Positions 6,107-62,781 are shown, counted from the stretch's first letter. The stretch: 64,000 nt of DNA from a virus (IMGVR_UViG_3300050013_000165:37469-101468), one strand, 5' to 3'. Numbers and translations: made by a program. The notes: generated from the letters alone by a model not told the origin.

Positions 6107-6879
6107 TGCCTGTCGATGTTGTTGTCGTGAACTACAAGACACCGGATTTGCTTCAAGACTTCATTCGTTCTTATGAAGCCTTGGAACTACCGGGTTGCAC
6201 GCTCACTATTGTTGAAGTTGAAGCGAACATTCCTGAAGATTGGCTTCGTGCTGAAGAATCCAATTCAAGGCAAACTCTCTTCTTTCGGGAAAACATTGGA
6301 TATGGAAAAGCGTGCAACGAAGGGGCAGCTCTCGGGCACAATTCCATAATTCTCTTCGCTAACGCTGACACCCTTTTGAGTGATGGGTTCAGGGAATGCC
6401 ATGACGCTTTAAGAGACCATCCGAATTGGGGAGTTCTCGGACCTCGACAAGTGAACGAGTTCAACTGCTTTACTGCGGGCGGCATCCCTGGTGGACCTCA
6501 CGGCCATGTTCAACGTGGTTGGAACCAAACCGATGTTGGTCAGTGCAGCGATGTGCTTGAAGACGTCTACTCGGTTTCGGGTTCGCTTTATTTCATCAAA
6601 CGCTCTGTGTGGAAAGAACTGACTGAGTGTCCGGTTTGGAAAGAGTATGCACCCAATGCTGTTGGAGCCTTCTTGGAGACGCGGCACTACTTCGAAGAGA
6701 CGACGTGTTCTCGGCATCTCACTGCTCACGGGCACATCAATGTGTTCTACGGACCCGTGAAGATGACACACCTCTTTCATCGTTCATCAGATCACGGGGG
6801 TTGGCAGGATCGAGAGGTCACCAACAGCAAAACGATGCACAGAGAATTTCTTGCGCTACACGGCATTGAACATGAGTAA
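6106..6879 (+). CDS. Glycosyltransferase family 2
   Basis: VDVVVVNYKT, NIGYGKACNEG, FANAD, VSGS, YFEE motifs. Confidence 0.85.
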   Translation: MPVDVVVVNYKTPDLLQDFIRSYEALELPGCTLTIVEVEANIPEDWLRAEESNSRQTLFFRENIGYGKACNEGAALGHNSIILFANADTLLSDGFRECHDALRDHPNWGVLGPRQVNEFNCFTAGGIPGGPHGHVQRGWNQTDVGQCSDVLEDVYSVSGSLYFIKRSVWKELTECPVWKEYAPNAVGAFLETRHYFEETTCSRHLTAHGHINVFYGPVKMTHLFHRSSDHGGWQDREVTNSKTMHREFLALHGIEHE

Positions 6880-7309
6880 CAAACTTCGGTGTAGTGCTTG
6901 TCGGCTGAATAAGGGTGAAGCAGAGTTTGCACTGAATTCCCGAACTAAGACTGGGCATCAAAATCAATGCCGTAGTTGCATGAAGAAGCACAACTCTCGT
7001 TATACAACTGATGATTACCGCTGGAAGAAAATCCTTTGGATGTATCATCTGACCCGAGCGCAATTTGAAGCCCTCTTGAAAAAGCAGGGCGGTCGTTGCG
7101 CCATTTGTCGGACGAAACGCCCAGGAGGTCGGTACAACCGTTGGGTAATCGATCACGATCACAAGTGTTGCGACGGCCCTTATTCCTGCGGTAAGTGTGT
7201 TCGAGGATTGCTGTGCAATCGATGTAATCACGGTTTAGGAAACTTTGCAGATAATCAAAAAGCTCTTCAGCGTGCTGTCATCTATCTTGAACGAATCGAG
7301 CACGAGTGA
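6872..7309 (+). mobile_element. Endonuclease VII-family homing endonuclease
   Basis: QGGRCAIC..IDHDH..VRGLLCNRCN.GLG; ends IEHE* like the upstream GT. Confidence 0.85.
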
Positions 7310-7412
7310 TGGAAGACATTCGAGATCGAGACTGGTGTGCTTGTGTTGATCCACTTCTCAATCAGTGCAAGGAGCGTCACTGTCCGTGGAAGAGAAAGCG
7401 ACTTGAAGAAGA

Positions 7413-8144
7413 ATGAGACTTTTTGCTTTTACGGTTGGAAAGAACGAGGAGAGTCGATACCTGTCTTCCATGATTCGCAATCTTGATGGCTTTGTCGATG
7501 ATCACTTTTTTTACGACGATCAATCGACAGATCGAACATTGGATATTGCTGACGTTTTGGGTTGTGTCGCTATCCGGCGTCCTGATGGGGTGGCCTCTTT
7601 TTCAGAAGATGAGGGAATGTTTCGCGAAGCCGCTTGGAAGTCTTTTGAGCTTCATATGCATCCCCGGCTTGGTGATTGGGTTCTCGTAATTGACTGTGAC
7701 GAGTTTCTTTCCATCAAAGGTCAGGGTGTCGAGTTCAACGACATCATGCGTGGTGGAACGGCCGTCAATCTGAGTATCCCCGAAGTTTTCGGCTTTGATA
7801 CAGATGGGTGCCCTCTTGTTCGCACGGATCGAAAGTGGGGAACAATTTTTGCTCCCCGACTTTTCGCCTATCAAGAAAATGGTGGCTTCGCTCGGGGCAA
7901 GGTTGGTGTTCCTGCTGTTCCGAGTTACGTCATGGCGACCCCGAATCGGGTCTCGACGGACGATGTCGTTTTGATGCACTTGGGGTACGCACGGTTTGAA
8001 GATCAAGAGATCAAATACGCTCGATACAACGGCGTCGATGGTCATTCTGACGAACACGTTCAGTCAATTGTGTCACCGGACAAGACGCTTGTTCGGTGCG
8101 AAGAGTGGAAGTGCAGGATTCCGTGGAAACAGTTGATGTCATAG
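7413..8144 (+). CDS. Glycosyltransferase family 2-like
   Basis: KNEE.RYL, DDQSTDRT, WVLVIDCDEF, HLGY motifs. Confidence 0.85.
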   Translation: MRLFAFTVGKNEESRYLSSMIRNLDGFVDDHFFYDDQSTDRTLDIADVLGCVAIRRPDGVASFSEDEGMFREAAWKSFELHMHPRLGDWVLVIDCDEFLSIKGQGVEFNDIMRGGTAVNLSIPEVFGFDTDGCPLVRTDRKWGTIFAPRLFAYQENGGFARGKVGVPAVPSYVMATPNRVSTDDVVLMHLGYARFEDQEIKYARYNGVDGHSDEHVQSIVSPDKTLVRCEEWKCRIPWKQLMS

Positions 8145-8755
8145 TTCCAACCTGTGGCGATATCGATGTATGGAAGCCGTTGGCCGAGCGTGCTCAACAG
8201 TCGGCCTTCAACCAAGTTGTCAAAGCGAATCGAGTGATCTGGTCACACAAGGCGACGGTTTCCGAAGCTCGGAACTTCGGAGCTTCACTCAGCACCGGAG
8301 ATTGGCTGATCTTTCTTGACGCCGACGATGAACTTGACCCACGGTATATCGAGCACATGATCGCGGGGAGTGGAGATATACGGCAACCTTCGACGCTCGG
8401 GGTCGTTAATGGCGTCGAGGATGATTTTCCAGTTCTTATCGAGCAGAAGAGCCTCATCATAGGTAACTATCTGATAATCGGCTCGATGGTCCGGCGGAAG
8501 TTGTTCTTGTCGGTAGGGGGTTTCCGTGACTTCCCGATTCTTGAAGATTGGGATTTATTTATTCGCCTCGCACTGGCTGGGGCTAAAATTGGCAAATGCC
8601 CTGATGCCATTTATCGGGTGCATGTACTTCCCGATAGTCGAAATAAACAGGGAGACTCAATTCATGGCAGCGTCTACAGTCAAATCCAAAGGGAACACGA
8701 AGCCGCTTGGTTCGCAAAGTTCCACCGTGACGAGTCATCCTTGTACGTTGTGTAA
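8096..8755 (+). CDS. Glycosyltransferase family 2 (start probably GTG 8123)
   Basis: VIVPT, ARNFGA, FLDADDEL, EDWDLFIR motifs. Confidence 0.85.
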   Translation: MRRVEVQDSVETVDVIVPTCGDIDVWKPLAERAQQSAFNQVVKANRVIWSHKATVSEARNFGASLSTGDWLIFLDADDELDPRYIEHMIAGSGDIRQPSTLGVVNGVEDDFPVLIEQKSLIIGNYLIIGSMVRRKLFLSVGGFRDFPILEDWDLFIRLALAGAKIGKCPDAIYRVHVLPDSRNKQGDSIHGSVYSQIQREHEAAWFAKFHRDESSLYVV

Positions 8756-9140
8756 GCGACCAATTAAGAGCAAATACAAGCGTTGCAGTAACTGTCGTCA
8801 AGGTCAACGAGAGGATTATTACGCCAATCACGACCGCTTATTGAAGAAAATGCGTGAGCGTGATCCAGAAGGACGATTTGCTTACAACATAAAGCGTTGG
8901 TACGGAATCACGCTTGACGAGTACAACTCTTTGTTGAAAGAGCAGGGCGGGGGGTGCGCCATTTGCCATTCGACAGAACCGGCAGGCAAAAGAGTCAAGC
9001 GGTTTTCTGTTGACCATGACCACCGGACCGGAAAAGTTCGAGGTCTGCTTTGTAATCTTTGCAATCACTTGCTTGGCTGTGCTCGGGATGATTTGCAGCT
9101 TTTAGTAAATGCCGTTGCGTATTTGGAGCGGGTGGCATGA
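8664..9140 (+). mobile_element. Endonuclease VII-family homing endonuclease
   Basis: YGITLDEY..QGGGCAIC..VDHDH.TGKVRGLLCNLCN; GGGAGA RBS before ATG 8664. Confidence 0.85.
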
Positions 9141-9421
9141 CCAATAAAATTTATCTAAATACTAACGAAATTATCTTTCTAAACGCCGACCATCAATTAG
9201 TTGATGGAAGTGCTGTTCATCCTCTGATGTGTGAACAGACAATGGAGCACATGAGAGAAGTCCACGGTGTTACAGACGGTTATACCGAAGGTGCAATTTT
9301 GGACTTGTCGTGGTGGCTGCAACAACACTTGAAACTTCACCCACCAATTACTCGGAAGTGGCCTGACCTTAATGAGCCTGGGTATGGTCGTCCAATAAAA
9401 ATGAAACCTGTAAAACGATGA
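9137..9421 (+). CDS. Hypothetical cargo gene inside the endonuclease cassette
   Basis: ATGA-coupled; lies between the HEG and the displaced GT 3' end. Confidence 0.55.
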   Translation: MTNKIYLNTNEIIFLNADHQLVDGSAVHPLMCEQTMEHMREVHGVTDGYTEGAILDLSWWLQQHLKLHPPITRKWPDLNEPGYGRPIKMKPVKR

Positions 9422-9603
9422 GTTTGTGGATTAGGTGCAAAATGGCCGGGGCTGTAATTTCGGCAGTACCCGAAGCCATCTATCGCGTTCATGTGAACGA
9501 GGGTAGTCGCAACAAACAGCCGCCAGAGTTGCACGGTCAGACCTATATGCAGATTCAGCAGGAACACCAAATGGAATACATGCGAATGTTCGGTCGAACA
9601 TGA
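9418..9603 (+). pseudogene. Displaced duplicate 3' end of the 8096-8755 glycosyltransferase
   Basis: LWIRCKMAGAVISAVPEAIYRVHVNEGSRNKQ aligns to LFIRLALAGAKIGKCPDAIYRVHVLPDSRNKQ. Confidence 0.8.
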
Positions 9604-13124: not shown

Positions 13125-13128
13125 ATAA

Positions 13129-15841: not shown

Positions 15842-16401
15842 TGGCATTGACGTCAGTTGAAAGACGACGGCTGTACGTCCAACGCCATCCCGAACGTGTT
15901 GCTGCTTCCAAGAAGTCCTATGGCGCAACCGAACGAGGCAAGACGACAAAGAGGAATTACAACCGTCGATATTACGAAGAGCATGGCGAAGAAATTCGCT
16001 CCCAGGCGAGAGATTGGTGTAAACAAAATCTTGATCGCAAGCGGCAACTGAACCATGTTTGGCGTGATGCCAATAGAGAGCATTACAACGACACCCAGCG
16101 AAGTTGGTATAAGACCAATCGAGAACAAAACCTATTGCAGCGCCGTGCTTACGACGCTCTGGTTGCAGCCCAAAGGCGTGCTCGAAAGCGTGGGGCTCAA
16201 ATTGGTGCGGTCACTATCGAGCTTCTTCAGGAGAAGTGGAATTATTGGTTTGGGCGTTGCTGGATGTGCGGAAAACAAGCTGAAGCTTGGGATCACGTAA
16301 AACCTCTAGCTAAGGGCGGTGCTCATTGCCTCGCAAACCTTCGTCCGGCATGCAAACCATGCAACAGCCGAAAACGAGATCGTTGGCCGTTTCGTAACTG
16401 A
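15841..16401 (+). mobile_element. HNH endonuclease
   Basis: CWMCG..WDHVKPLAKGGAHCLANLRPACKPCNSRK. Confidence 0.85.
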
Positions 16402-17420: not shown

Positions 17421-18413
17421 ATGGCCTCTGCAATTACCGGCTCGCCTTATCTGGCCGCTTCGCCGACTGGATATGCGGGCGCAAACTCAACGCTTGGGCA
17501 GGCAATCCAGACGATTTGGTCCAAGGAAATCCTGTTCCAGGCAATGCCCATTCTGCGCTTCGAGCAGTTTGCGGTCAAAAAGACGGAGCTTGGTGTTCAG
17601 CCTGGTCTGACCATCAACTTCATGCGATACAACAACCTGCCAAATGCTTCGCAGTTGGTGGAAGGTGTTCGCATGCAGACCGTCGCTTTGACGGCGAGCC
17701 AGTTCTCGATCACGGTTGCAGAACAGGGCTTCGCTGTGTCGGTCACGGAGCTGTTGCTCAATGCCTCGTTCGACGACGTCATGGCTTCGGCCTCCCGTCT
17801 GCTCGGACGAAACATGGCGCAGTACCTCGACTACAGCGCTCGGAACACACTGCTTTTGGCGTCGTCAGTGATCTTCGGATACAACTACCTCGCCACCGAC
17901 AACCCGCGGACCACGCAGTCGCCGTATGACCACGGCTCCGCTGCAACGTCCACCAACGGGTTGACGGGGAACTACTACTTCACCCCGGCTTTGGTGAAGG
18001 ATGCAGTATTGACCCTTGCTTCGAAGAACGTTCCTCGCCTCGGTGAGACCTACGTCTGCTTCGTGGCACCGACCCAGTCCCGAGAGCTTCGAGACTGCCC
18101 TGAGTTCATCGAGGTTACGAAGTACGCCGCCCCCGGCAACTTCGCCCTTGGCGAGATCGGTCGGCTTTGGGACTGCGTGTTCATTGAGACCACGCAGGTC
18201 AACCAAGCGCAGACCACGGCCGCTACTCCGGCCACGTACTACCAGGCGATCTTCATCGGCGACAATGCTTTCGGGCATGCGATTTCGTTGCCGGTCGAGC
18301 TTCGTGACGGTGGCGTTCTCGACTTCGGTCGAGAGCACGCTCTGGCATGGTACGCGATTTGGGGTCTTGGATTGATTACAGATTGGTCGGTCGTGATCGC
18401 AAATACCAACTAG
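17421..18413 (+). CDS. Major capsid protein (N4-gp56 family)
   Basis: IWSKEILFQAMPILRFEQFA, GEIGRL, DFGREHALAWY motifs; AAAGGAG RBS. Confidence 0.9.
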   Translation: MASAITGSPYLAASPTGYAGANSTLGQAIQTIWSKEILFQAMPILRFEQFAVKKTELGVQPGLTINFMRYNNLPNASQLVEGVRMQTVALTASQFSITVAEQGFAVSVTELLLNASFDDVMASASRLLGRNMAQYLDYSARNTLLLASSVIFGYNYLATDNPRTTQSPYDHGSAATSTNGLTGNYYFTPALVKDAVLTLASKNVPRLGETYVCFVAPTQSRELRDCPEFIEVTKYAAPGNFALGEIGRLWDCVFIETTQVNQAQTTAATPATYYQAIFIGDNAFGHAISLPVELRDGGVLDFGREHALAWYAIWGLGLITDWSVVIANTN

Positions 18414-18447
18414 TTGAACTCCCCAGTAGTTGTGTTAAACTGCTGGG
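18414..18447 (+). promoter_or_regulatory. Sigma70-like promoter embedded in a hairpin, leaderless start of the HEG
   Basis: TTGAAC-16-TAAACT-6-ATG; CCCAGTAGTT/AACTGCTGGG stem. Confidence 0.55.
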
Positions 18448-19191
18448 ATGACAATCAGAACGTGTGCTCTGTGCCCAGCACAGAAAGCTCCATACAAACA
18501 TCCAGAAGACCCTGAGCTTCGTATCTGTCAGGCGTGCAAGCGTCGATTAGAACGACAAGCTCGGGGTCTTTTGCTGCCAGGACCAAAGCCTGATCCAACA
18601 CGACCAAGGTCACGATATGGAACACAACGGGAAGGAAGCCCAAATCGAATATCACGTCGTCAATTTGCGACTGAAACTCGCTGTGCCAACAATCACCTGT
18701 TTACCAATGAGAGCACGTATTGGCGCAAAGACCCAAATGATGGAGTAGAGCGTCGAATCTGCCGAATTTGTTTGCGAGCAGCACAGCGCAAATCAAAAGG
18801 GCTTCCAGCAATTCCAGATGACACTCCGTTTGGACCACGCAATAAAGACAAGACGCATTGTCCACAAAATCATGAGTACACGCCAGAGAACACTTACACC
18901 TATAAGAGCGGTCTTCGTCGATGCCGAAAATGTATGCGAGCGCAGCAAATACGACACGATTATGGGATTGAGCCGGAGCAGTTTGACTTTTTTATCGAGA
19001 AGCAAGGAAATGCTTGTGCGATTTGTGAGCGGTCGTTTGAGGTGGAAACACCGCACGTTGACCACGATCACGCTGACGGGCATGTACGAGGCATTCTCTG
19101 TCGTCCTTGTAACTCGGGCCTCGGGTTCTTTGAGGATTCCCTGACGATGCTCAGGCGGGCCGTTCGCTACTTGGATAGGATTTCAGCATGA
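18448..19191 (+). mobile_element. Endonuclease VII-family homing endonuclease with Zn-ribbon repeats
   Basis: THCPQNHEYTPENTY repeats; CAIC..HVDHDH..VRGILCRPCN. Confidence 0.85.
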
Positions 19192-19610
19192 GCAGGATTT
19201 CACCGCAGGCTCAACGACTAAAGGACGCCGCCGCCAATGTCACCGGCCACCCAAAAAGCTTTTTTACGGTTCGCACCGAGAAGAACCGTTATGGCGAATA
19301 CGGTGATGCTCATCTCGATTTGAACATCCGAAATATCGTTCGAAAAGGAAATGGGCTGACGCATAGAGATGTTCACGAGAATCTTGCGGATCACGCCGAT
19401 GATCTTGCAAAGCAAGGCTTGACCGTGAATGTGATTCACTCTTTGGACGGTCGCCGGAGCACCCATGTCTCGTCTACTCACAACCCTCGGCAAGAGGTGG
19501 CGGAATATCAAAATGGCAAGTGGAACACCCGTTCTCTGTTTCACGACCGTCGTCAATTGAGCGCCCAGGAACTTCGAACACTTCAAAAGCCGGATTCGGA
19601 GTGGAACTAA
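19188..19610 (+). CDS. Hypothetical cargo gene inside the endonuclease cassette
   Basis: ATGA-coupled; its stop abuts the duplicated MCP end. Confidence 0.6.
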   Translation: MSRISPQAQRLKDAAANVTGHPKSFFTVRTEKNRYGEYGDAHLDLNIRNIVRKGNGLTHRDVHENLADHADDLAKQGLTVNVIHSLDGRRSTHVSSTHNPRQEVAEYQNGKWNTRSLFHDRRQLSAQELRTLQKPDSEWN

Positions 19611-19645
19611 CCGACTGGTCGGTGGTTGTGGCGAATACGAACTAA
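19610..19645 (+). repeat. Displaced duplicate of the last 11 MCP codons
   Basis: acc gac tgg tcg gtg gtt gtg gcg aat acg aac taa = TDWSVVVANTN* vs MCP TDWSVVIANTN* (18378-18413). Confidence 0.85.
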
Positions 19646-19674
19646 CGTCTCCAATCGAGACGTCTGCAAGGCTG

Positions 19675-19700
19675 AGGCCCGCCCTTCGGGGCGGGTCTTT
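19675..19700 (+). terminator. Rho-independent terminator
   Basis: AGGCCCGCCC-TTCG-GGGCGGGTCT-TT. Confidence 0.8.
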
Positions 19701-19701
19701 G

Positions 19702-19902
19702 CTATTCGAGGGCTTCTGTAATGAGGAAGCTCACTCGTTCGTCGTCGCGCCATCGCACATAGAGATCGACCATTTCGTCAATCGCTTCCCACGTTGTGAC
19801 GAATCCACAACGGGCGGCTTCTCGGGCAGCGGAATTGCGCAGACGAACACGCACCTCATCGTTGCTGATTGTCGTCCAGTACGGAACGAATCCGCCGAGC
19901 AT
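19702..19902 (-). CDS. Small hypothetical protein (leaderless)
   Basis: TAGGCT-6nt-ATG on the minus strand; ends at the terminator. Confidence 0.45.
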   Translation of the reverse strand: MLGGFVPYWTTISNDEVRVRLRNSAAREAARCGFVTTWEAIDEMVDLYVRWRDDERVSFLITEALE

Positions 19903-35443: not shown

Positions 35444-37431
35444 CGTTCATTGAAAACACGCCCCCAGCGGCGACTCCCGTAATCGACTATTCAAGTCGCG
35501 ATTATCTGTCGATCTACAACGACCTGCTCGAACGGCGAAGCATCTACATGCCCGAGTGGACATCGACATCAACTGCCGACTTCGGAATTGCACTCATCCA
35601 AATGTTCTCCTACGTCGGAGACATCATTGGGTATTACCTCGACCGTCTTGCGGGTGAGGCCTTTATTCAAACGGCAACACAGCCTGTTTCGATCCTCAAT
35701 CTGGCAGCGATGCTCGATTATCAGCCGACGCTATCTGTCGGCGCTTCAGTGAACCTCTTGTTGACTGTGAGCCCGTTGCTCGCCTCGACGTACTTCCCCT
35801 ACACCGTTCCGGCGGGCACGCAGTTCTCAACGATAGGGACAGCAGCACAGGCGGCAATCATCTTCGAGACGACGCAGGCTGTTACATTTCCCAATCCAAA
35901 TGGTGCCGGAACGACGTTGGCTGTTGCACTCACGGCAAACAGCACCTACACAGCGATCACTGTTGCCGCTGGTGGAATTAGCGAAGCGCTCTTTGTCGGT
36001 GATTATGTTGAAATTCTCAACACGCTTGCTACTCCATCAACTCAGTTGTTGGAAGTAACTTCAAATGCCAGTGTCGGTGCGACGGCGATTTCGGTCGCTT
36101 CGTTTGTCGCTAATGCGAACTACGCAATTGGTTCGCAGGTTGAATACACCGATCAAGCTCTTGTTCCGGCGGTCCAAGGCATCACCAACTTCACCGAAGC
36201 GGTGGGGACGTCCAATGGTTCGTTGAACCAACAGTTCTCGTTGCTCTACAACCCCGTGAGTGCTGACAGTTTTTCGCAAGGCGGCATCGTCACTGTTCTC
36301 GGGGCTCCAACTCTTGCACCGACCATCGTGTATGTCGATCTCGGGCTCGGACCACAACCGTGGACTTACGTCACCAACTTGGCGAACTATGGGCCTAATG
36401 CTCAGGTGTACACGAGCTTCGTTGATGCAGACGGAACTTTCTACATTGTCTTTGGCGACAGTGTGAACGGATTTGTGCCGCCTCTTGCTAGTCCGATTAC
36501 CTGCACTTATGTAGTGAGTGACGGCGTAACTGGCAATGTGGGTGCCAATACAATTGTGAGTCCGGTTACAGCGCTCACCGGCATTTCGTGCACGAACCCG
36601 TTGCCAGCTAATGGCGGCATGGATGCAGAGTCGTTGACTTCAATTCAATTAAACGCACCGGCTTCTCTGAAAGCGCTCAATCGCGCTGTGACTGTGCAGG
36701 ATTTTTCTACACTCGCTATTCAGATTCCTGGTGTGCAATGGGCGTCAGCGGTAGAGGTGACCTATCAGTTGGTCAACCTTTTTGTTGCCCCATTTGGTGG
36801 CGGGGCTCCGACTTCGGTATTGACTAGCTCGGTTGCGAGCTTTATCGATCCGCTCGTAATGGCAAATACGACGGTGACGCTTTTGTCGCCGACCTATGTG
36901 CCAATCAACATTTCGGCAAATGTCAGCATTTACCCGAACTACGGCAACACGGCTGTGCAACAAGCGGTCGTGAACGCTTTGAACAGTTTGCTCGCTTTGT
37001 CCAATACCGGCTTCGGCTTCCGAGTCTCGTTGGGTGCCGTCTACAACACCATTCTGAGTGTGGCCGGGGTCAATTACGCCAACCTCACTGTCCTTAATCG
37101 GTCGATGCTTGCGTTGACGACATCTGTTCTCACTAGCGGGCAGAGCTATAGCTCGATTCCGGTCAGTGCGTTGCCGCAGGCGGTCGCCAGCGGCGACACA
37201 ATCGTTCTGAGCAACGGTGTTAGCACGCAGACACTGACGGCGAGCGGTGCGGCCTTGGCAGGGGCTGCGTCTGTTCCTGTTACCCCGTTCCTTGCGAACG
37301 CCACTTATGCCATTGGCTCGACGATCCAAGACACCACGCAGTTTGGCGATTGCGTGTTGCTTGCAAATGAGATTCCCGAGGCTCCCAATTCCTACGGGAT
37401 TATTGTTTCCGGCGGGGTGGTGGGATCATGA
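35440..37431 (+). CDS. Baseplate J-like wedge protein
   Basis: DYSSRDY, DFGIALI, YYLDR..EAFI.TA, FGD..NG..P, RAVTVQDF. Confidence 0.9.
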   Translation: MTFIENTPPAATPVIDYSSRDYLSIYNDLLERRSIYMPEWTSTSTADFGIALIQMFSYVGDIIGYYLDRLAGEAFIQTATQPVSILNLAAMLDYQPTLSVGASVNLLLTVSPLLASTYFPYTVPAGTQFSTIGTAAQAAIIFETTQAVTFPNPNGAGTTLAVALTANSTYTAITVAAGGISEALFVGDYVEILNTLATPSTQLLEVTSNASVGATAISVASFVANANYAIGSQVEYTDQALVPAVQGITNFTEAVGTSNGSLNQQFSLLYNPVSADSFSQGGIVTVLGAPTLAPTIVYVDLGLGPQPWTYVTNLANYGPNAQVYTSFVDADGTFYIVFGDSVNGFVPPLASPITCTYVVSDGVTGNVGANTIVSPVTALTGISCTNPLPANGGMDAESLTSIQLNAPASLKALNRAVTVQDFSTLAIQIPGVQWASAVEVTYQLVNLFVAPFGGGAPTSVLTSSVASFIDPLVMANTTVTLLSPTYVPINISANVSIYPNYGNTAVQQAVVNALNSLLALSNTGFGFRVSLGAVYNTILSVAGVNYANLTVLNRSMLALTTSVLTSGQSYSSIPVSALPQAVASGDTIVLSNGVSTQTLTASGAALAGAASVPVTPFLANATYAIGSTIQDTTQFGDCVLLANEIPEAPNSYGIIVSGGVVGS

Positions 37432-39938
37432 GCAATATGGCTAACGCCATTACGTCCACGCTCAATGTTCAACCGTCCAACTACAACGGGCTCGAAGTTA
37501 GTTGGACACTTCCGAGCGGTAATTGGACTCAGCTTTATTTGCTTCGATCCTCGTTTGGGACGCCACTCAGCATATTTTCAAATGACGGTGTCGTGTTGCT
37601 CGAACAGACGAGCAACTTCTCGACGTCGTTCGTTAACGAACCGCTCGAATCAGGATTCTTCTACTACTACAGCATCATCGTCTATAGCCCAACACTGGGC
37701 GAGTACGTGTTGGCCGGAGCCGCACAAGGGCTCGTGCTCACTGAGTTCGATCTCGGGAGCACATTTCAGGCCTGGATGCCGGATTGGTACAACGAGCAAG
37801 ATCAAGCCTTCATCACAACGCAACAGCCCGAAGGTCCATTAGAGCGGTTTCTCAATCTGTTGGGGTATGAAGAGGATTGGATCAAATCGGAAATCCAGTC
37901 TTTCTTCACGGCAACGAACATCGATCTTGCATCTGGTTATCTAATCCCGTTCATCGGTGGGAACTTCGATATCGATTATGAGCCCGAGTTAGGCATGACG
38001 CGCTCGCGTGCGCTCGTAAAGAACGCCGTCTTCCTTTACAAGTTCAAGGGGACGACGGGTGGCATTGCTGCCGCAGCTTCTTCGTTTTCAGGGTTCGGGT
38101 GTGAAGTCACTGCTGGCAAGAACCTTGAAATCCAGCTCGACGATTATGCGTTTGATCGTTCGACTGGGCACTGGGTTCCAGGGAATTCGAGCACGACCAT
38201 TTCCAGGGAGGGCGCTGCAACTGCCGGGGTTTCTCCGGCGTACACCAGCTATGACCCGGCGACAACGAATGCAGGTTCGCCGTGGGTGAGTGGTCAGTTG
38301 TATTTGGCTGGCACCTACGTCACTGCTGTGGTTGGTGGCGTGACGTGTGTCTATTTCTCTATTCATACAGTCCAGAGCACGACATCGCCGCCTAATGATC
38401 GAACAAACTGGATTCCGGTCAACTATCTGCCGGTCAACAATTTCAACGTTGGGGTTATGTCGGGTAATGCCGCCACACCGCAGCCAATTTGGTTGACGAC
38501 GTGTACCGAGGCCACAGCAACAACGCTCGGCATACCGGTGGCGCAGACAGCTACGCCGCCGATGTACGTCTTCAGTTATTACGTGCAACCACAGCAACAG
38601 ACAACGCCGACTCTTCGTTCGTTTCTTGCACAGATCGATTGGTACAACATTTTCGGAGCGTTCATTAGCTCAACGGTTGGTTCTGCTGTTGCTGAAGTAG
38701 CAGACACATGGGTTCGCCCCTATGTCGTCGGTACGCCTCCGGCCGGTGCCTATTACTTTGGGCGCACCGTCAAATCTGTTCAGAGCATCACAGGCGACAA
38801 TCATTTGTTCTGTGGCGCACAGAGCGAGATCAATACTCAGGCAACGCCGGGTCCTTCGTCGCTCGAACCACCAAGGGCCATCAAGCTCAATCTCTTCCCG
38901 TCGCGTCAGAACCTAATTCCAAATCCGGTCGGGCGAGCTGCTGCAAATTCTGGTGTATTTGGTTGGTCAACATCAAACGGGGCGTTCGCTGCTTCGGCCT
39001 TCATGGCGACACCGCCAGCAATTACATGGCCCGCCAATACCTCCTCTGGTTTCGTCATTACGACGTTCATTGGTGGAACGCAGGTTCCTGGTCCGGCGAT
39101 GTTTGGTGCGATCATCCCAGGCATCAGCGGGCTCGGCTTCAGCATGCTCGGCGGCAATCTCTCGACAGGACCGGGGAATGTAATCAGCAGTCTGTTGATT
39201 TCCGTCAACGCCGGAGACCCGTATTCGCTGTCGGTTTATTTCATGGCCGCAACGGTCTCTCGCGAAATCCAACTCTCGATCACTTATTACAACGCAGCGG
39301 GACAGCTTCTCGCTCTTCCGGCATTTGCTGCATCGTTGTCGAGCGAACTTCTTTCGGGACAGACCTATAACGCTCTTCCGTTGAATTCTCTGCCGTTTGC
39401 GGTGAGTGCTGGGGAGCCAATCATTATCAACTTCGGAACAAGCTCTCAACAGCTTGTGCACGCTTCAGCGGCACTTCCGGCCACTGGGAGCCCCGTTGCA
39501 TTGCCTGTCTTCCCGTTCGTTGCTGCGGGCACCTATCCCGCCTCTACGCCGGTCTCGTTTTCATATATCACCTTCACTGATGCCGTTGGCGTGTGGACGC
39601 GGGGCGATTTGATTAACGCCCTGATTCCGATTGGAGCTACGCAGGCTTTCTTGCAGTTCACAATCGTCAACCCAGCGACCGATGAGGTGCATTACCTCGG
39701 GGCTCCGCTGTTTGAGCCCGTCGCTTATTTGGGAACGTACTTTGATGCAAACTTCTTGCCCTCGACAGACTTCTTTTGGGAGGGCATTGCGAACGAGTCG
39801 ATTTCGGATTACTATCCGAGCCTGCAATCGAAGCTCTCACGGCTCATCTCCGTAATGCCCGAATTCACTCCTATCGGGAGCACCTTCAGTCTGGTTACGA
39901 TGCAGCGTGCCTTTACTAATGTGAATGAGATCGGTTAG
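37428..39938 (+). CDS. Baseplate wedge gpI-like / fibre-attachment protein
   Basis: [17 protein letters not shown] motif; CBM-like modules. Confidence 0.7.
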
Positions 39939-39948
39939 ATTTTGCTGC

Positions 39949-40443
39949 ATGCAGAAAAGGTTCACGGTCAAACAAGAACAAGCCATCATCCGTCAATACG
40001 AGCGCGGTGATTCGACCTACAAAATTGCGGAACGGTTCGGTGTGGCAAATAGCACAACGATCATCAATGTTTTGAAGAGAGCGGGCATTCCTCGGCGACC
40101 CCGTTCGTTTTACTTTCCTCACAGCCCTTGGGTGACCACAGATGGGTACATTTGGGTGTGGGCCGAAGGTCCGTTAGCCGAGAGCATGTGTAATCACCGT
40201 GGGATGGTTTTGGAGCACAGGCTCGTAATGGCACAAAGTTTGGGTCGCCCTTTGCGAAGGGATGAAACTGTTCACCATATAAACGGTGACCGTCAAGACA
40301 ACCGTCTTGAAAATTTGCAGCTTCGTCAGGGTAATCATGGGAGTGGTGCTGTATTTCGTTGTTTGGATTGTGGCTCCTACAATGTGCGCCCGAGGAAGCT
40401 TCGAAAGAAGAAAGCATTTGCCAACGTCTCTGAAATTGGATAG
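39949..40443 (+). mobile_element. HNH (HNH_3) homing endonuclease with N-terminal HTH
   Basis: [34 protein letters not shown]; ends AFANVSEIG*. Confidence 0.85.
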
Positions 40444-40455
40444 AAAGGTAATCAA

Positions 40456-40994: not shown

Positions 40995-41007
40995 TCGGCA
41001 TTACCAA

Positions 41008-41036
41008 TTGACAGTTCCTGGTGTTTTGATTAGGGT
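41008..41036 (+). promoter_or_regulatory. Sigma70/HrdB-like promoter
   Basis: TTGACA-17-TAGGGT. Confidence 0.65.
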
Positions 41037-41178
41037 GCTGGCCGAACATCTAATGCAGGGTCTTTTATGCAGGGATTCGGCCAATGGTGTTCTGGCGGCG
41101 GGTAGCCCTTGTTGAGGGGGCTGGGGAGTGAGTAATCGCTTCCCAGCCTTTCTCTCTCGATTTTTGAAGAAGAGGATT

Positions 41179-45234: not shown

Positions 45235-46100
45235 TGGACGATGTCGAGCAGATTCTCGACCAGCTCAACATTGTCGTTCGTTCAAAAGGTCGAGAACTGT
45301 CTGCGGAATGCCCATTCCACACTGATAGCCATCCATCATTTTCCATCAATGCGAACTCGGGGCTTTGGATTTGCTATCAGTGTGGGCGTGCGGGCACGCT
45401 CGAAATGCTCATACAGGAGATCACCGGGGAAACGGCTACCGGTGCCTCCTTGTTACGCGAGGTCCGACGTCGTCCAAAGAAGGCCAAGGAGGAGCTAGAA
45501 GCTCCACAAGAGATTGACATCAACATTGTGCGAGCGATCTATGCCAGCTTGAAGACACCGCCATCGTGGGCTTGCGAGGAGCGTTCCTTCGGTCGAGCTG
45601 AGGCAAAGGAGTACAGCATCAAATGGGATCATGGATGGGTGTTGCCTATTTGGGACCCTGAAGGTGTTCACGGTGACGTCTTTGATTTGTGGGGATGGCA
45701 GTACAAGCAGATCGACTTCCATTCGAACTTTCCAAAGACTGTCAAGAAGTCAATGACCCTTTTTGGCCTTCGAGAGTTCCTTTGGCACGGCGACGGCAAT
45801 TCGCTCATATTGGTCGAGTCCCCGCTCGATGTTGTTCGACTGGCAACGGTCGGTTTGTGGGCTGTGGCGAGCTTTGGAGCCATTGTCTCGAAGCGGCAAA
45901 TGGAGCTGCTGATTGATGCGACAGACCGAGTTGTGTTGGCGCTCGATAATGATGATGCTGGGAGGGAGGCGACGAAGCGCATCTATCGCCCGCTCATCGG
46001 TCGAGTACATCGAGTCCATGTGGTTACGGAGCGGTTTCCAGACAAGTGCAAGGACCCCGGTGAAATGTCAGACAAGCAAATCGAGAAGGTATTTGGGTGA
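45234..46100 (+). CDS. dnaG: DNA primase (CHC2 zinc finger + TOPRIM)
   Basis: CPFH..PSF..CYQCG; LVESPLD; ALDNDDAG; KDPG. Confidence 0.9.
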   Translation: MDDVEQILDQLNIVVRSKGRELSAECPFHTDSHPSFSINANSGLWICYQCGRAGTLEMLIQEITGETATGASLLREVRRRPKKAKEELEAPQEIDINIVRAIYASLKTPPSWACEERSFGRAEAKEYSIKWDHGWVLPIWDPEGVHGDVFDLWGWQYKQIDFHSNFPKTVKKSMTLFGLREFLWHGDGNSLILVESPLDVVRLATVGLWAVASFGAIVSKRQMELLIDATDRVVLALDNDDAGREATKRIYRPLIGRVHRVHVVTERFPDKCKDPGEMSDKQIEKVFG

Positions 46101-47629
46101 CGTTCAAAGGCGAGCTGTACGAGTTCCAAGCTAAGTGTGTCGAGAAAATGCTCAAACGACGTCGCGTCTTGGTAGCCCATCGCATGGGGCTCGGGAAGAC
46201 CGTCACCGCTATTGCAGCCGTCGAGTCGTTGATTGATGACGGGCTCGTCCGTTCGGTGCTTGTGATTTGTACTGCATCGATTCAATGGCAGTGGAAGCGA
46301 AGAATCGACGAGTTCACTGATGGAGCCCTCACGCTCATAATCGAGGGTCCGCAGCCGGATCGTGTAGCCCAGTATCGCAAGGTGAAGCGTGGAGACGTCG
46401 AATACGTCATCATGAGCTACAACCAAGTGGTGTCAGACTGGGACATAGTCAAACTGCTGCACTGGGACGCCATCGTTTGCGACGAGGTGGCTGCAATCAA
46501 GAACACTGGCGCAGATCGCTCTCGACACATCAAGCGGTTGAAGGCTCGTTATCGATTTGGTTTGACGGGGCAGCCGATTGAGAATCGACCTGAAGATGCT
46601 TTCTCGATCATGGAATGGATTGATCGACCGTTTCTCGGTGACGCCGGAGAGTTCGACATGCGTTACATCGTCCGGCGAGATAACGGAACGGTTCGCTTCT
46701 ACAAGAGGCTCAACGAGTTTCGAAAGAAGATTCAGGACGTTATGGATCGACGCACACGCAAAGACGTCGCCGATCAAATGCCAGCTCTCGTGGAGACTGC
46801 TGAGTACGTCTACTTCGATGCACCGGGACGAAAGCTATATCGCAAGATTTCACGGGAGTTGGTAGACGTCATTGTTTCCACTCCTCGATATTCGACGTTT
46901 GATTTGCAAGCGCATTACGCCGGGGTCAACGATGGGACAGCACAAGGCGACATCATGGCGCGAATGTTGGCATTACGAATGTTGTGTGACCATCCAGAGC
47001 TAATCCGAATCTCGGCACGCCTCTACAACAAGACTGGCGGTAAGCACGGTTCCGCATATGCGGTTGAACTCATGGATCAAAAACTCGTTGATCCGGTAAA
47101 GGCAAGCCCGAAGCTACATGCGACGCTGGAACTAATCGACCGCACACTCGAAGAGGATGATGAGAACAAAGTCGTTCTCTTCAGTTTCTTCAAACCGATG
47201 CTTGCAATTATCGCCAAGGAACTGAAGTGGGGTTACGAAATGTTTACCGGTGATCTTTCGGCACGAGATCGCGATGCAGCTATTGAACACTTTGGCAGTG
47301 ATCCAAACTGTCGAGTGTTTTTGTCGTCCGATGCGGGTGGTGTCGGTGTTGACCTTCCAATGGCGAACTACTTGATCTCTTACGATCTTCCGTGGAGTGC
47401 CGGAGCGTTCGAGCAACGCAAGGGGCGCATCGACCGCATTAGCTCAAAGTTTCCTGAGGTCACGATGATTTCAATGCTCATGCATAATTCTATAGAAGAG
47501 CGCATGCTCGAAATGCTCAACCAGAAGAGCGCCATTGCCGCCGCTTTCCTTGATGGGGAGGGGTTGGATCGAGGCACTTTCAAGCTCACCCTCGGGACTC
47601 TCGCTGATTTTCTTCAGGAAAGACATTAG
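46097..47629 (+). CDS. SNF2-family helicase
   Basis: MGLGKT, DEV, LTGQPIEN, AGGVGVDL, QRKGRIDRI. Confidence 0.9.
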   Translation: MTFKGELYEFQAKCVEKMLKRRRVLVAHRMGLGKTVTAIAAVESLIDDGLVRSVLVICTASIQWQWKRRIDEFTDGALTLIIEGPQPDRVAQYRKVKRGDVEYVIMSYNQVVSDWDIVKLLHWDAIVCDEVAAIKNTGADRSRHIKRLKARYRFGLTGQPIENRPEDAFSIMEWIDRPFLGDAGEFDMRYIVRRDNGTVRFYKRLNEFRKKIQDVMDRRTRKDVADQMPALVETAEYVYFDAPGRKLYRKISRELVDVIVSTPRYSTFDLQAHYAGVNDGTAQGDIMARMLALRMLCDHPELIRISARLYNKTGGKHGSAYAVELMDQKLVDPVKASPKLHATLELIDRTLEEDDENKVVLFSFFKPMLAIIAKELKWGYEMFTGDLSARDRDAAIEHFGSDPNCRVFLSSDAGGVGVDLPMANYLISYDLPWSAGAFEQRKGRIDRISSKFPEVTMISMLMHNSIEERMLEMLNQKSAIAAAFLDGEGLDRGTFKLTLGTLADFLQERH

Positions 47630-47631
47630 AA

Positions 47632-47829
47632 GTGAAACGGTGTAGCAAATGCAAAACCGACAAACAGCTTGATGCTTTCGGTCCTGAATGGCCTCACCCC
47701 GAATCGGCATCTATTGACCACGTCATCCCCCTCAGTTGTGGGGGAGGGGACGTGTTTGACAATGTGCAATCTGCTCACCTTCGGTGCAATCTTCGCAAGG
47801 GGAGTCGAGCCGTGCAAGAACGTCACTGA
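47632..47829 (+). mobile_element. Miniature/internally deleted HNH endonuclease
   Basis: CSKC..SIDHVIPLSCGG..NVQSAHLRCN; ends QERH* like the helicase. Confidence 0.75.
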
Positions 47830-48671: not shown

Positions 48672-48807
48672 GTGGGCGATGCGAAGATTTGGGTTACTTC
48701 CATGTTAAGGACGGAGTCGCTGGTTCGAATCCAGTCATCGGGGCTTGCCTCGATGTAGCTCAGTGGTAGAGCACGTACATTTCCCGAGTCGTTTGGTTCA
48801 CGTCCAC
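48672..48807 (+). ncRNA. YrlA-like Y RNA, unit 3, with circularly permuted tRNA domain
   Basis: GTGGGCG/CGTCCAC; T arm GCTGG-TTCGAAT-CCAGT, closed acceptor CATCGGGG..CCTCGATG, then D arm TAGCTCAGTGGTAGAGC. Confidence 0.88.
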
Positions 48808-61390: not shown

Positions 61391-61411
61391 TCGAGCGTTA
61401 GGGTCTCCTCA

Positions 61412-61675
61412 ATGGACACTCGTCGAGTTGGTCACGCACAGCGCCGCAGAGTTGGCGCACCCTCCAACGTCTATGCCGACGTCATGGAGCCGCCCCGTTT
61501 TGGTGCAGGCGAAGCCGTTCGCGCTAAGGGGCGCTACCGAGACCAGATGATTGAAGAGGTCCTTCCAAACATCGCTCGACCAGATGCCGACAACGACGGG
61601 CACGGTTACGTTGTCTCCGGCGGCAAGATGGGTCGCAAGTCGGTGCACACTTCGAGTGAACTGCGGGGTTCCTGA
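61412..61675 (+). CDS. Hypothetical protein (leaderless)
   Basis: TTGCAC-18-TAGGGT-7-ATG. Confidence 0.55.
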   Translation: MDTRRVGHAQRRRVGAPSNVYADVMEPPRFGAGEAVRAKGRYRDQMIEEVLPNIARPDADNDGHGYVVSGGKMGRKSVHTSSELRGS

Positions 61676-61965
61676 TGGAGCGCAAGCAACCGGTTGGCAC
61701 CAAAGACATGCCGGAACTCGACAACGCTCTCGATGCAAATCAAGAGGTCATGGTCGATGAGCTGATCACTCCTCACGTCAAGATGCCCGAGCGAGGTGGA
61801 GCAATCCACAAAATCGTGGCGAGTTACCCGGCCCAAGAGCAAGAACGCCAGCCCACCCAAGCGCGTGGTCACGTCGTGTGGAGCGATGCGTATTCATTCC
61901 AACGACGCGGGCCGAGCTACCTTGACCCCATTGAGAACCCAGGGGCGTTGAGCGATGCCAGATAA
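61675..61965 (+). CDS. Hypothetical protein
   Basis: TGATG coupling. Confidence 0.55.
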   Translation: MERKQPVGTKDMPELDNALDANQEVMVDELITPHVKMPERGGAIHKIVASYPAQEQERQPTQARGHVVWSDAYSFQRRGPSYLDPIENPGALSDAR

Positions 61966-62326
61966 CTTCACGGCCGGTGAGACTGACGCTGACATGGCGA
62001 TGCCACCGATTGCGGCACCGGAAAGCTCCGAAATGCTCGGGGCTCGACTTGGCGTGCGAGTCGCCCATCCTGGTCCCCCATCGCCGGACCCGATTAGCGA
62101 GCCCTACCTCATGCCGTCTGTCGCCGGTCGTAATGGTTCGACAGAAAAGGTCGATCCAGCAATCGTTCAGACCCCACTCGGGGGCATGATGCCTGGGCCT
62201 AATGCAATCGCTCCGGCGGTTGTGGTCGGCCAGGATTACCGAGCCCCAGTGCCGGACGAGGCGCACGGCTGGGGGGCTGGCATTAGAGACGGCTACCCCG
62301 AAGGCAGCCCCATTCCTCATCGGTAA
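61955..62326 (+). CDS. Pro-rich hypothetical protein
   Basis: Coupled ORF. Confidence 0.55.
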   Translation: MPDNFTAGETDADMAMPPIAAPESSEMLGARLGVRVAHPGPPSPDPISEPYLMPSVAGRNGSTEKVDPAIVQTPLGGMMPGPNAIAPAVVVGQDYRAPVPDEAHGWGAGIRDGYPEGSPIPHR

Positions 62327-62781
62327 TGACTGTCTCTGAGAAGCGACGCAATTACCCATCGGTACTCGATGACCGAGATCGCCCAGCGAAAAAGGGTGAA
62401 GTCGTTTGTGCTGTTAGTGATTGCGAAAGAGTGCGGAAGCGCCGTCAGTACTGTCTGAAGCATTATGCCAGATGGCGTCGAAATGCCGATCTTACAACCC
62501 TTGGTCATGCTGCAAATGAGGTCGGTAAGGATCGGGCCTTCAAAAAAGCCTGGGTTGACAATTACAAGCTGGAACATGGCTGTGCTGACTGCGGTTACAA
62601 CGAGCCCCCTGCCGCCCTCGATTTCGACCACCGACCTGGGACGAAGAAGATTCGCAACATTAAGGCCGGTCACCAGTTTGGATGGCTCGCTCTCTTGGCG
62701 GAAGTCGCTAAGTGTGATGTGGTTTGTGCAAATTGTCATCGAATTCGGACGGTAAATCGCCGTCATATCCCGCACAAGTAG
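62326..62781 (+). mobile_element. HNH homing endonuclease
   Basis: CADCG..LDFDH..EVAKCDVVCANCHRIRT. Confidence 0.85.

What the first reader, a model, noticed from the sequence alone, without database searches (positions are those of the whole stretch)
6865..62781. Systematic 3'-end-replacement homing: six endonucleases flanked by recoded duplicates of the host gene's C-terminus
Seen pairs (host end / copy after HEG): GT IEHE* 6865-79 / IEHE* 7295-309; GT last ~55 codons / 9418-9603; MCP TDWSVVIANTN* / TDWSVVVANTN* 19610-45; baseplate AFTNVNEIG* 39909-38 / AFANVSEIG* 40414-43; helicase QERH* 47615-29 / QERH* 47815-29; ORF61955 IPHR* 62312-26 / IPHK* 62767-81. The copies differ mostly at synonymous positions. 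In four cases the endonuclease ORF is fused in frame to the displaced tail and uses its stop codon. Established: free-standing HEGs can invade genes while supplying a cleavage-resistant gene end. Inference: unrelated nuclease families (EndoVII, HNH, HNH_3) use the same splice-free strategy here, preserving coupling to the next gene.
Basis: partly seen in the sequence, partly recalled or inferred. Interest (0 to 1): 0.72.

Follow-up and report, generated by a model that had tools for sequence, protein, structure and literature searches.

The report
Phage endonuclease genes that swap gene ends
In this uncultured actinophage, six selfish DNA-cutting-enzyme genes sit inside the last codons of working genes. 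Each leaves a second, differently spelled copy of those codons, so the host gene stays whole without an intron or intein; this layout is documented in fungal mitochondria, and I found no description of it for phages.

Summary
All six repeat pairs lie at the stated coordinates and are far beyond chance as a set. The copies keep the amino acids, but 21 of 28 conserved codons are spelled differently.

The enzymes are three EndoVII-type, one HNH_3, one HNH (PF01844) and one HNH found only by PHROGs. These are distinct families of one His-Me-finger superfamily, so "unrelated" is too strong. The closest long relative (G001) has none of the endonucleases and a single gene end at four sites, and most likely at the fifth.

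The key prediction could not be tested in the window, because its relatives are only about 80% identical in DNA. It holds in a sister case found here. In L058 an HNH of the window's sixth family ends in its host's last five codons. The downstream copy plus flank is 54/54 identical to the endonuclease-free L061, while the upstream copy is unusually diverged.

In the window, the upstream copies have nuclease-like GC3 and the downstream copies have host-like GC3 (p=0.025).

Best reading: homing events that brought a donor's gene end and pushed the resident end downstream, as in fungal mitochondrial mobile ORFs. Cleavage resistance is untested. The layout is not obligatory, because homologous endonucleases elsewhere usually lack the duplicate. 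This scan has noted the same layout in at least seven other phage genomes.

The parts
6106..6879 (+). Its last four codons plus stop (6865-6879, IEHE*) are the upstream copy.
   Evidence: The G001 homologue (55% identity) ends HGIESE*, and its stop overlaps the next gene's start.
6872..7309 (+). Endonuclease 1, EndoVII type. Its ATG lies inside the upstream copy. Its last four codons plus stop (7295-7309, IEHE*) are the downstream copy.
   Evidence: Pfam PF02945, E=2.3e-22. Sequence read. Absent from G001.
7309..7416 (+). Small Cys-rich ORF (35 aa). It overlaps the stop of the downstream copy and the start of the next glycosyltransferase (7413). It has no counterpart in G001.
   Evidence: No PHROG hit.
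8096..8755 (+). Host gene 2, a family-2 glycosyltransferase. Its tail from about 8555 to 8728 is the upstream copy, with GC3 of 0.46 like the cassette.
   Evidence: Pfam PF00535 and PF10111. Alignment to the orphan, 30/58. GC3.
8664..9140 (+). Endonuclease 2, EndoVII type. The frame is open from 8526 and the true start is not fixed; it overlaps the end of host gene 2.
   Evidence: Pfam PF02945, E=1.4e-25. Start candidates.
9137..9421 (+). Passenger ORF (94 aa) of unknown function, with the lowest GC3 of the region (0.37).
   Evidence: No Pfam or PHROG hit. GC3.
9418..9603 (+). Displaced tail of host gene 2, kept as a 61-codon ORF. It overlaps (ATGA) the passenger ORF on one side and the next glycosyltransferase (9600) on the other. 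Its GC3 of 0.57 matches the host genes.
   Evidence: In G001 the single tail overlaps the next gene's start in the same way.
17421..18413 (+). Major capsid gene. Its last 11 codons plus stop (18378-18413) are the upstream copy.
   Evidence: Pfam PF25209. 598 relatives found. Relatives L001-L004 have one tail and no endonuclease.
18448..19191 (+). Endonuclease 3, EndoVII type. A 10-bp hairpin (18422-18447) precedes it and reaches its ATG.
   Evidence: Pfam PF02945, E=1.1e-21. Hairpin -17.1 kcal/mol, z=-4.8. Homologues sit right after the capsid stop in L015, L023, L035, L041, L063 and L104.
19188..19610 (+). Passenger ORF (140 aa) of unknown function.
   Evidence: No Pfam, PHROG or Atlas lead.
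19610..19645 (+). Displaced capsid tail (11 codons plus stop). It lies out of frame with the passenger ORF, so it is probably untranslated. Its residues equal the tail of relatives L001 and L002.
19645..19703 (+). Two hairpins after the displaced capsid tail, the second an 11-bp G+C stem followed by a U-rich run. This is probably the capsid gene's own terminator, now downstream of the cassette.
   Evidence: Fold -37.1 kcal/mol, z=-5.4. A flank motif is shared with L004's post-capsid spacer. The simple terminator scan did not call it.
37428..39938 (+). Host gene 4, an 836-aa tail-module protein (weak Tail_P2_I match, below cut-off). Its last 9 codons plus stop (39909-39938) are the upstream copy.
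   Evidence: The G001 homologue has a single end of the same type.
39925..40443 (+). Endonuclease 4, HTH plus HNH_3. Its first ATG lies inside the upstream copy. Its last 9 codons plus stop (40414-40443) are the downstream copy.
   Evidence: Pfam PF13392, E=2.7e-9..
46097..47629 (+). Host gene 5, an SNF2-family helicase. Its last four codons plus stop (47615-47629, QERH*) are the upstream copy.
   Evidence: Pfam PF00176 and PF00271. The G001 homologue ends SERY* and has no endonuclease before the next gene.
47632..47829 (+). Endonuclease 5, a minimal HNH of 65 aa. Its last four codons plus stop (47815-47829, QERH*) are the downstream copy.
   Evidence: Pfam PF01844, E=1.3e-9..
61955..62326 (+). 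Host gene 6 (123 aa, unknown function). Its last four codons plus stop (62312-62326, IPHR*) are the upstream copy.
   Evidence: No Pfam or PHROG hit.
62326..62781 (+). Endonuclease 6, an HNH. Its ATG overlaps the host stop (TAATG). Its last four codons plus stop (62767-62781, IPHK*) are the downstream copy.
   Evidence: phrog_2255, E=1.8e-25; no Pfam hit. Relatives of this family end differently after the conserved CANCHR motif.

Best explanation
Each site is a free-standing homing-endonuclease cassette that entered the last codons of a resident gene and brought a donor phage's version of that gene's end.

The resident gene now finishes in the donor-derived upstream copy. The resident's own last codons, with their native link to the next gene or terminator, were pushed downstream of the cassette.

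Most likely origin (inferred):
- The nuclease cut the resident gene a few codons before its stop.
- The left end was repaired by homologous copying from the donor, through the donor's gene end and the endonuclease gene.
- The right end was joined without homology, at or near the break.
- The downstream copy would therefore begin close to the cut site.

Where the join fell inside the nuclease's variable C-terminus, the nuclease now reads into the displaced tail and uses its stop (sites 1, 4, 5, 6). At sites 1, 4, 5 and 6 the nuclease start sits in the upstream copy or within 2 nt of its stop, so translation is probably coupled to the host gene.

Shown: the anatomy, the insertion polarity relative to endonuclease-free relatives, the two-allele origin of the copies, and the identity of the downstream copy with the empty allele in the sister case L058/L061.

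Inferred: the cut positions, the one-sided repair, and any benefit of the different spelling (immunity to self-cleavage, or protection from loss by recombination between the repeats).
For: 1. Anatomy and statistics.
2. All six ORFs are nucleases, and the three EndoVII-type ORFs keep the DHDH...C..CN motif.
3. G001 has the same gene order without the nucleases and with single ends. Its stop-start overlaps correspond to those that the window keeps at the downstream copies of sites 1 and 2.
4. The copies are saturated at synonymous sites, yet the probably untranslated capsid orphan still spells the exact tail of L001 and L002, while the upstream copy spells that of L003. The two are therefore separate functional alleles.
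5. Pooled GC3 is 39/90 for upstream copies and 55/90 for downstream copies (Fisher p=0.025). Nuclease ORFs have GC3 of 0.42-0.52 and host genes 0.50-0.72.
6. L058 against L061: the downstream copy plus flank is 54/54 identical to the empty allele. The upstream 48 nt carry 14 differences against an 11.4% background (p=7e-4).
7. L177 shows a 13-14-codon case with the same HNH family. Its downstream copy resembles the host tail of L144.
8. The same layout, with experimental backing, is described for fungal mitochondrial mobile ORFs (PMC3630166).
Against: - No relative close enough exists to say directly which copy is native in the window. Capsid relatives are about 80% identical in DNA, and both copies are equally distant from them.
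- At site 2 the upstream tail is somewhat nearer to G001 than the orphan is: 52/81 over a longer stretch, against 25/48.
- At site 1 a small ORF absent from G001 lies between the downstream copy and the next gene, so the native junction is not strictly preserved there.
- The IPHR/IPHK pair is weak on its own.
- No cleavage data exist.
Confidence: 0.8

Rival explanations
1. The recoded end plus the endonuclease gene is a stable, selected mobile unit, not a scar of one-off illegitimate repair. It homes repeatedly, using the gene body as the left homology arm and the displaced tail plus flank as the right arm. The different spelling is selected because it blocks self-cleavage and stops recombination between the repeats from deleting the element. 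This differs from the best explanation in propagation and selection, not in anatomy.
For: - Eight cases in one genome.
- Conserved codons differ slightly more often than independent draws predict (21 against 15.9, p=0.027).
- Start codons are built into the upstream copies.
- The same layout occurs in L058 and L177, and was noted by this scan in at least seven other phage genomes (unchecked notes).
Against: - Homologous endonucleases at the same capsid site in six relatives carry no duplicate.
- Only 1 of 71 loci of the sixth HNH family has the in-frame repeat.
- The excess of codon differences can also come from the differing GC3 of donor and host.
- No two genomes with the same composite element were found.
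Confidence: 0.35
2. The repeats are target-site duplications made in place at insertion, and later drifted apart.
For: Direct repeats flank each insert.
Against: - The copies share no nucleotide similarity beyond what the amino acids impose.
- The probably untranslated capsid orphan nevertheless keeps a perfect natural tail.
- In L058 the downstream copy is identical to the empty allele, while the upstream one is more diverged than the gene average.
- GC3 differs between the copies.
Confidence: 0.04
3. The three 4-codon matches (IEHE, QERH, IPHR/K) are coincidences. Only the capsid, tail-protein and glycosyltransferase cases are real.
For: In the any-stop test, QERH (p=5.6e-3) and IPHR/K (p=0.019) are not significant across 153 genes.
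Against: - Against the adjacent nuclease's own tail, the single-pair p values are 2.6e-4 to 7.8e-4.
- Four or more such matches among about 12 nuclease ORFs is about 2e-8 by my arithmetic.
- The matching residues lie beyond the conserved end of each nuclease family.
Confidence: 0.05
4. The inserts are introns or inteins that are spliced out, so the downstream copy is the real exon end.
For: Relatives carry group I introns in the capsid gene, one only about ten codons upstream of this site.
Against: - No intron model matches anywhere in the window at E<=0.01.
- Every host frame closes with its own stop before the nuclease ORF.
- The nuclease ORFs are not embedded in frame within the host proteins.
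Confidence: 0.02

Closest known systems
Mobile endonuclease ORFs (mORFs) that form gene hybrids in fungal mitochondria: Allomyces macrogynus atp6; Glomus atp6, atp9, cox2, nad3 (PMC3630166, read; also C-terminal duplications of cob and atp6 in PMC6279837)
   Same: - An endonuclease ORF sits at a gene's 3' end.
- The inserted C-terminus continues the gene, and the native C-terminus is displaced downstream.
- The copies are much more alike in protein than in DNA.
- The native copy matches close relatives.
- The ORF is sometimes in phase with neighbouring coding sequence.
   Different: - Host is a phage genome, not an organelle.
- The nucleases are HNH and EndoVII types, not LAGLIDADG or GIY-YIG.
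- The replaced ends are very short (4-11 codons in five of six sites).
- The nuclease reads into the displaced tail and starts inside or beside the new tail, so almost no spacer is added.
- No cleavage or expression data exist here.
Free-standing homing endonucleases of T-even and other phages (Seg and Mob proteins; 'intronless homing'), and F-CphI, an EndoVII-motif homing endonuclease of cyanophage S-PM2 (PMC6083498, listed)
   Same: - Nuclease genes lie between conserved genes and are sporadically present among relatives.
- They sit next to the gene they presumably cut.
- An EndoVII catalytic motif is used for homing.
- The same family sits downstream of the same gene across diverged phages.
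   Different: As I recall them, the classical cases lie in intergenic spacers, or split a gene in two, without a second copy of the gene end. Here the insert lies inside the last codons and a duplicate end keeps the gene whole.
Illegitimate double-strand-break repair during intron homing with limited exon homology in phage T4 (Parker, Belisle and Belfort 1999; recalled from memory, not read here)
   Same: One-sided homologous repair plus a non-homologous join would produce flanking duplications of target sequence. That is the origin proposed here.
   Different: That is a laboratory system with an intron. Here the products are natural, intron-free and fixed in a genome.
Integrating elements that insert into the 3' end of a tRNA or protein gene and carry a replacement end
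   Same: The target gene is kept functional by a replacement 3' end carried on the element.
   Different: Those use integrases and identical attachment-site repeats. Here there is no integrase, and the repeats differ at most synonymous positions.

Membership tests
Mobile endonuclease ORF with gene C-terminus replacement (fungal-mitochondrion-type gene hybrid) | An endonuclease ORF is inserted at or within the 3' end of a conserved gene | tested here: met
   Six nuclease ORFs start within or just after the last codons of their host genes.
Mobile endonuclease ORF with gene C-terminus replacement (fungal-mitochondrion-type gene hybrid) | The C-terminal coding segment is duplicated: one copy completes the gene and one is displaced downstream of the ORF | tested here: met
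   Significance.
Mobile endonuclease ORF with gene C-terminus replacement (fungal-mitochondrion-type gene hybrid) | The copies are far more alike in protein than in DNA | tested here: met
   In the five short pairs, 28 of 32 residues are identical and 21 of those codons differ. Nucleotide identity is 0.55-0.76.
Mobile endonuclease ORF with gene C-terminus replacement (fungal-mitochondrion-type gene hybrid) | The displaced downstream copy is the native one, matching endonuclease-free relatives | tested here: inconclusive
   In the window, relatives are too distant, and only GC3 (p=0.025) and flank continuity point that way. The feature is met in the sister case L058/L061: 54/54 identity.
Mobile endonuclease ORF with gene C-terminus replacement (fungal-mitochondrion-type gene hybrid) | The encoded enzyme cleaves the uninterrupted allele near the insertion point | not testable with these tools
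   Needs enzyme assays.
Free-standing homing endonuclease gene of phages | A recognisable nuclease domain with its catalytic motif | tested here: met
   PF02945 three times, PF13392, PF01844 and phrog_2255. Motifs are visible. Endonuclease 5 is only 65 aa and may lack a DNA-binding part.
Free-standing homing endonuclease gene of phages | Sporadic presence among related genomes at an otherwise syntenic site | tested here: met
   G001 lacks them at four sites. L001-L004 lack the capsid one. L061, L073 and BRock lack the L058 one.
Free-standing homing endonuclease gene of phages | Co-conversion of flanking markers from the donor | tested here: inconclusive
   L058 has a tract of raised divergence in the last 48 nt of its host gene (p=7e-4). 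No such test is possible in the window.
Intron- or intein-encoded homing endonuclease | A self-splicing RNA fold, or an in-frame intein, around the nuclease ORF | tested here: not met
   Rfam finds no intron in the window at E<=0.01. Host frames end in a stop before each nuclease ORF.
Transposon-type target-site duplication | Identical short direct repeats made at insertion | tested here: not met
   The repeats differ at 24-45% of bases and at most synonymous sites.

The most novel reading that the evidence does not exclude
Terminus swapping is a general third way, beside introns and inteins, for homing endonucleases to occupy coding sequence in phages. In this reading the differently spelled gene end is a selected, integral part of the mobile element: it gives immunity to self-cleavage and prevents loss by repeat recombination. 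Some phage lineages, such as this one with eight cases, would be invaded mainly in this way, while their relatives carry introns at neighbouring positions.
Probability: 0.35. Interest if true: 0.75.

Novelty: new variant of a known kind. Interest (0 to 1): 0.6.

Why it matters
- **Mobility.** It shows how selfish nuclease genes can sit inside essential phage genes (capsid, tail, helicase, glycosyltransferases) with no splicing machinery. It also shows that each invasion imports a foreign gene end, producing chimeric proteins such as a glycosyltransferase with about 60 replaced residues.
- **Annotation and phylogeny.** Gene ends next to nucleases may be foreign. Orphan tails can be miscalled as genes. 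Nuclease C-termini may be borrowed.
- **Target prediction.** If the downstream copy starts at the break, these repeats give the approximate cut sites of uncharacterised HNH and EndoVII enzymes from sequence alone. That makes target-site prediction directly testable.
- **Generality.** One 101-kb genome with eight cases, and sister cases with empty-site relatives, give material for a systematic survey.

Tried and rejected
**Closer relatives**
- Single-protein scans of viral contigs with the helicase, the tail-protein C-terminus and the glycosyltransferase at 7413 found nothing.
- The one metagenome scan, with the portal protein, gave a single 74%-identical 4-kb contig.
- As a result, the native copy could not be identified directly in the window.

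**Sliding identity**
- The capsid gene against L001-L003 shows no foreign tract. Both copies are 0.75-0.83 identical to the relatives' tails.

**Wider scans for the same signature**
- G001, G002 and G005 gave only a whole-gene duplicate in G001.
- 661 kb of related loci gave L058.

**Other dead ends**
- DNA search of the L058 cassette against cultured phages: no match.
- Protein search of endonuclease 3 against cultured phages: only distant EndoVII genes.
- The passenger ORFs have no Pfam, PHROG or Atlas lead.

**Literature**
- Five full-text searches and a reading of PMC10448857 found no phage description of this layout.
- PMC2248197 turned out to be irrelevant.
- Absence from this open-access library does not prove that the layout is unpublished.

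**Readings rejected**
- Intron or intein.
- Target-site duplication.
- Chance, for the set as a whole.

Full report
**What the window is**

The window is the last 64 kb of a 101,468-bp IMG/VR phage record. Nearly all genes are on the + strand. Its capsid gene places it among uncultured relatives of Streptomyces phage BRock and similar actinophages.

**The observation**

Translation and codon-by-codon comparison reproduce all six pairs at the stated coordinates.

The intervening ORFs are nucleases:
- three EndoVII type (PF02945);
- one HTH plus HNH_3;
- one HNH (PF01844);
- one HNH recognised only by PHROGs.

By established knowledge these are separate families of one His-Me-finger superfamily, so "unrelated" overstates the case.

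The host genes are a family-2 glycosyltransferase, the major capsid protein, an SNF2 helicase, an 836-aa tail-module protein with a weak baseplate match, and two proteins without a family match.

In sites 1, 4, 5 and 6 the nuclease frame ends in the downstream copy. In sites 2 and 3 a passenger ORF of unknown function follows the nuclease, and the displaced tail lies after it.

**Chance**

I compared each gene's last residues with every stop-anchored peptide in the 2.5 kb downstream of unrelated genes.
- The capsid and tail-protein pairs exceed the maximum of 21,638 null comparisons.
- IEHE has p=7e-4.
- QERH and IPHR/K are not significant on that broad test.

Against the sharper hypothesis, that the host's tail equals the adjacent nuclease's own tail, they give p of 4.4e-4 and 7.8e-4. 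Four or more such matches among about twelve nuclease ORFs of the genome is about 2e-8 by my arithmetic.

The whole genome adds two cases outside the window: MFR*, and GGVSW* beside a decayed HNH remnant.

**Are these insertions?**

The closest long relative, G001 (the contig of L004), has the same gene order with none of these nucleases.
- Host gene 1 abuts the next glycosyltransferase with an overlapping stop and start.
- The second glycosyltransferase abuts the third in the same way.
- The helicase is followed after 120 nt by the same next gene.
- The tail protein ends in a homologous single tail.
- L001 to L004 have a single capsid tail followed by the same next gene.
- No intron model matches anywhere in the window, and each host frame has its own stop, so splicing is not involved.

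**Two alleles, not one duplication**

In the five short pairs, 28 of 32 residues are identical, yet 21 of those 28 codons differ. Independent draws from the phage's own codon usage predict 15.9 (p=0.027). Site 2 is likewise saturated.

The capsid orphan is out of frame with the passenger ORF and probably untranslated. It still spells exactly the tail found in L001 and L002, while the upstream copy spells the tail of L003. In-place duplication followed by drift cannot give this result. Two functional alleles from diverged lineages can.

**Which copy is native?**

This cannot be answered directly. The nearest capsid relatives are only about 80% identical in DNA, and both copies are equally distant from them. 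Scans for closer relatives failed.

Three indirect lines point to the downstream copy.
1. Pooled GC3 is 0.43 for upstream copies and 0.61 for downstream copies (p=0.025). Nuclease ORFs run 0.42-0.52 and host genes 0.50-0.72. At site 2 the active tail (0.46) matches the cassette, and the orphan (0.57) matches the gene body and the next gene.
2. The downstream copies keep the native right-hand context. At sites 1 and 2 they keep the stop-start overlaps seen in G001. At the capsid site the orphan is followed by strong hairpins and a flank motif shared with L004.
3. The upstream copies are adapted to the nucleases. At sites 1 and 4 the nuclease ATG lies inside the upstream copy, at a position where the downstream copy's spelling has no ATG. 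At site 6 it overlaps the host stop, and at site 5 the GTG start follows the stop by two bases.

Against this reading, at site 2 the upstream tail is a little nearer to G001 than the orphan is. At site 1 a small Cys-rich ORF absent from G001 separates the downstream copy from the next gene.

**A direct test in a sister case**

Scanning 661 kb of related loci for the same signature found L058.
- There, an HNH of the same family as the window's sixth nuclease ends in the last five residues (GMWGL) of the upstream gene.
- L061, L073 and BRock itself have that gene with one end and no nuclease.
- L058's downstream copy plus 36 nt of flank is 54/54 identical to L061.
- The last 48 nt of L058's host gene carry 14 differences, against an 11.4% background (p=7e-4).

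A further case, L177, has a 13-14-codon tail fused to an HNH of that family. Its downstream copy resembles the host tail of L144, where the same gene is followed by such an HNH without a duplicate.

**How general is it?**

The layout is not a rule.
- The HNH after the portal gene (15841-16401) has no repeat.
- Several nuclease ORFs in the first 37 kb of the genome show no repeat.
- Homologues of endonuclease 3 sit directly after the capsid stop in L015, L023, L035, L041, L063 and L104 with no duplicate.
- Only 1 of 71 loci of the sixth HNH family shows the in-frame repeat.

The usual state is therefore an ordinary free-standing gene after its target. The duplicated end marks particular invasion events, and this genome is unusually rich in them. 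Relatives occupy nearby positions differently: L040 has a group I intron about ten codons upstream of this capsid site, and G001 has one near the capsid 5' end.

**Mechanism**

Most likely, the nuclease cut the resident gene a few codons before its stop. The left end was repaired from a diverged donor, copying the donor's gene end and the nuclease gene. The right end, lacking homology, was joined at or near the break.

This explains:
- the polarity of the two copies;
- the saturated synonymous differences;
- the compositional split;
- the variable repeat length;
- fusions within the non-conserved nuclease C-terminus (compare the natural ends).

It also predicts that the downstream copy starts near the cut. 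Whether the different spelling is selected, for immunity or against excision, or is simply allelic divergence, remains open.

**Comparison with what is known**

The anatomy matches mobile endonuclease ORFs of fungal mitochondria. In those, an inserted foreign C-terminus completes atp6, atp9, cox2 or nad3, and the native C-terminus lies downstream. Protein identity is high and DNA identity low. For Allomyces, endonuclease activity has been demonstrated (PMC3630166; PMC6279837).

Five full-text searches and one targeted reading found no description of the layout for phages. That is not proof of absence.

Notes from this scan report the same layout in at least seven other phage genomes. Those notes are unchecked, and I do not count them as evidence.

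**Verdict**

- The core reading, gene-end replacement by homing-endonuclease cassettes, is well supported.
- The claims about cleavage resistance and a fixed strategy are untested or overstated.
- I rate it a new variant of a known kind, of moderate to high interest.

Noticed in passing
L040:2031-2288 and L004:4094-4317: There are ORF-less group I introns in the capsid genes of relatives. L040's (Rfam 70 bits) interrupts the gene about ten codons upstream of where the window's cassette sits. L004/G001's (40 bits, below the gathering score) lies after codon 34.
   Followed up: partly
G001 (loci L089-L090), about 36419-41258 of that contig: The portal gene of the closest relative matches in five pieces spread over 4.8 kb instead of 1.75 kb. 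This suggests about three insertions of roughly 1 kb each (introns, inteins or nuclease genes).
   Followed up: no
It shares no tail with the portal gene. It may be a packaging-associated HNH and not a homing enzyme.
   Followed up: partly
window 18422-18447: A 10-bp hairpin (-17.1 kcal/mol, z=-4.8) lies between the capsid stop and the ATG of endonuclease 3 and ends at the start codon. It could hold down translation of the nuclease within the abundant capsid transcript.
   Followed up: partly
window 7309-7416: A 35-codon Cys/His-rich ORF overlaps both neighbours' stop and start. It is absent from G001 and has no family match.
   Followed up: partly
own genome 3829-4432 and 16481-17625 (before the window): There are two more gene-end repeats. 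GGVSW* lies beside a decayed fragment of the sixth HNH family. MFR* is shared by a glycosyltransferase and an HNH_3-like ORF whose ATG overlaps the host stop.
   Followed up: partly
L177:1-700 and L144:1998-2899: A small conserved gene ahead of a 631-aa protein is followed by an HNH of the sixth family in two unrelated contigs. In L177 there is a 13-14-codon displaced tail fused to the nuclease; in L144 there is none.
   Followed up: partly
G001 contig about 57100-59900, minus strand: Two full-length paralogues of a 74-aa Cys-rich gene lie 1.9 kb apart, with no clear gene between them.
   Followed up: no
window 48678-48798 and 1704-1776: There is a Y-RNA-like (YrlA) match at 34.9 bits, below the gathering score of 69, upstream of the gene at 48929. 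There is also a tRNA on the minus strand.
   Followed up: no
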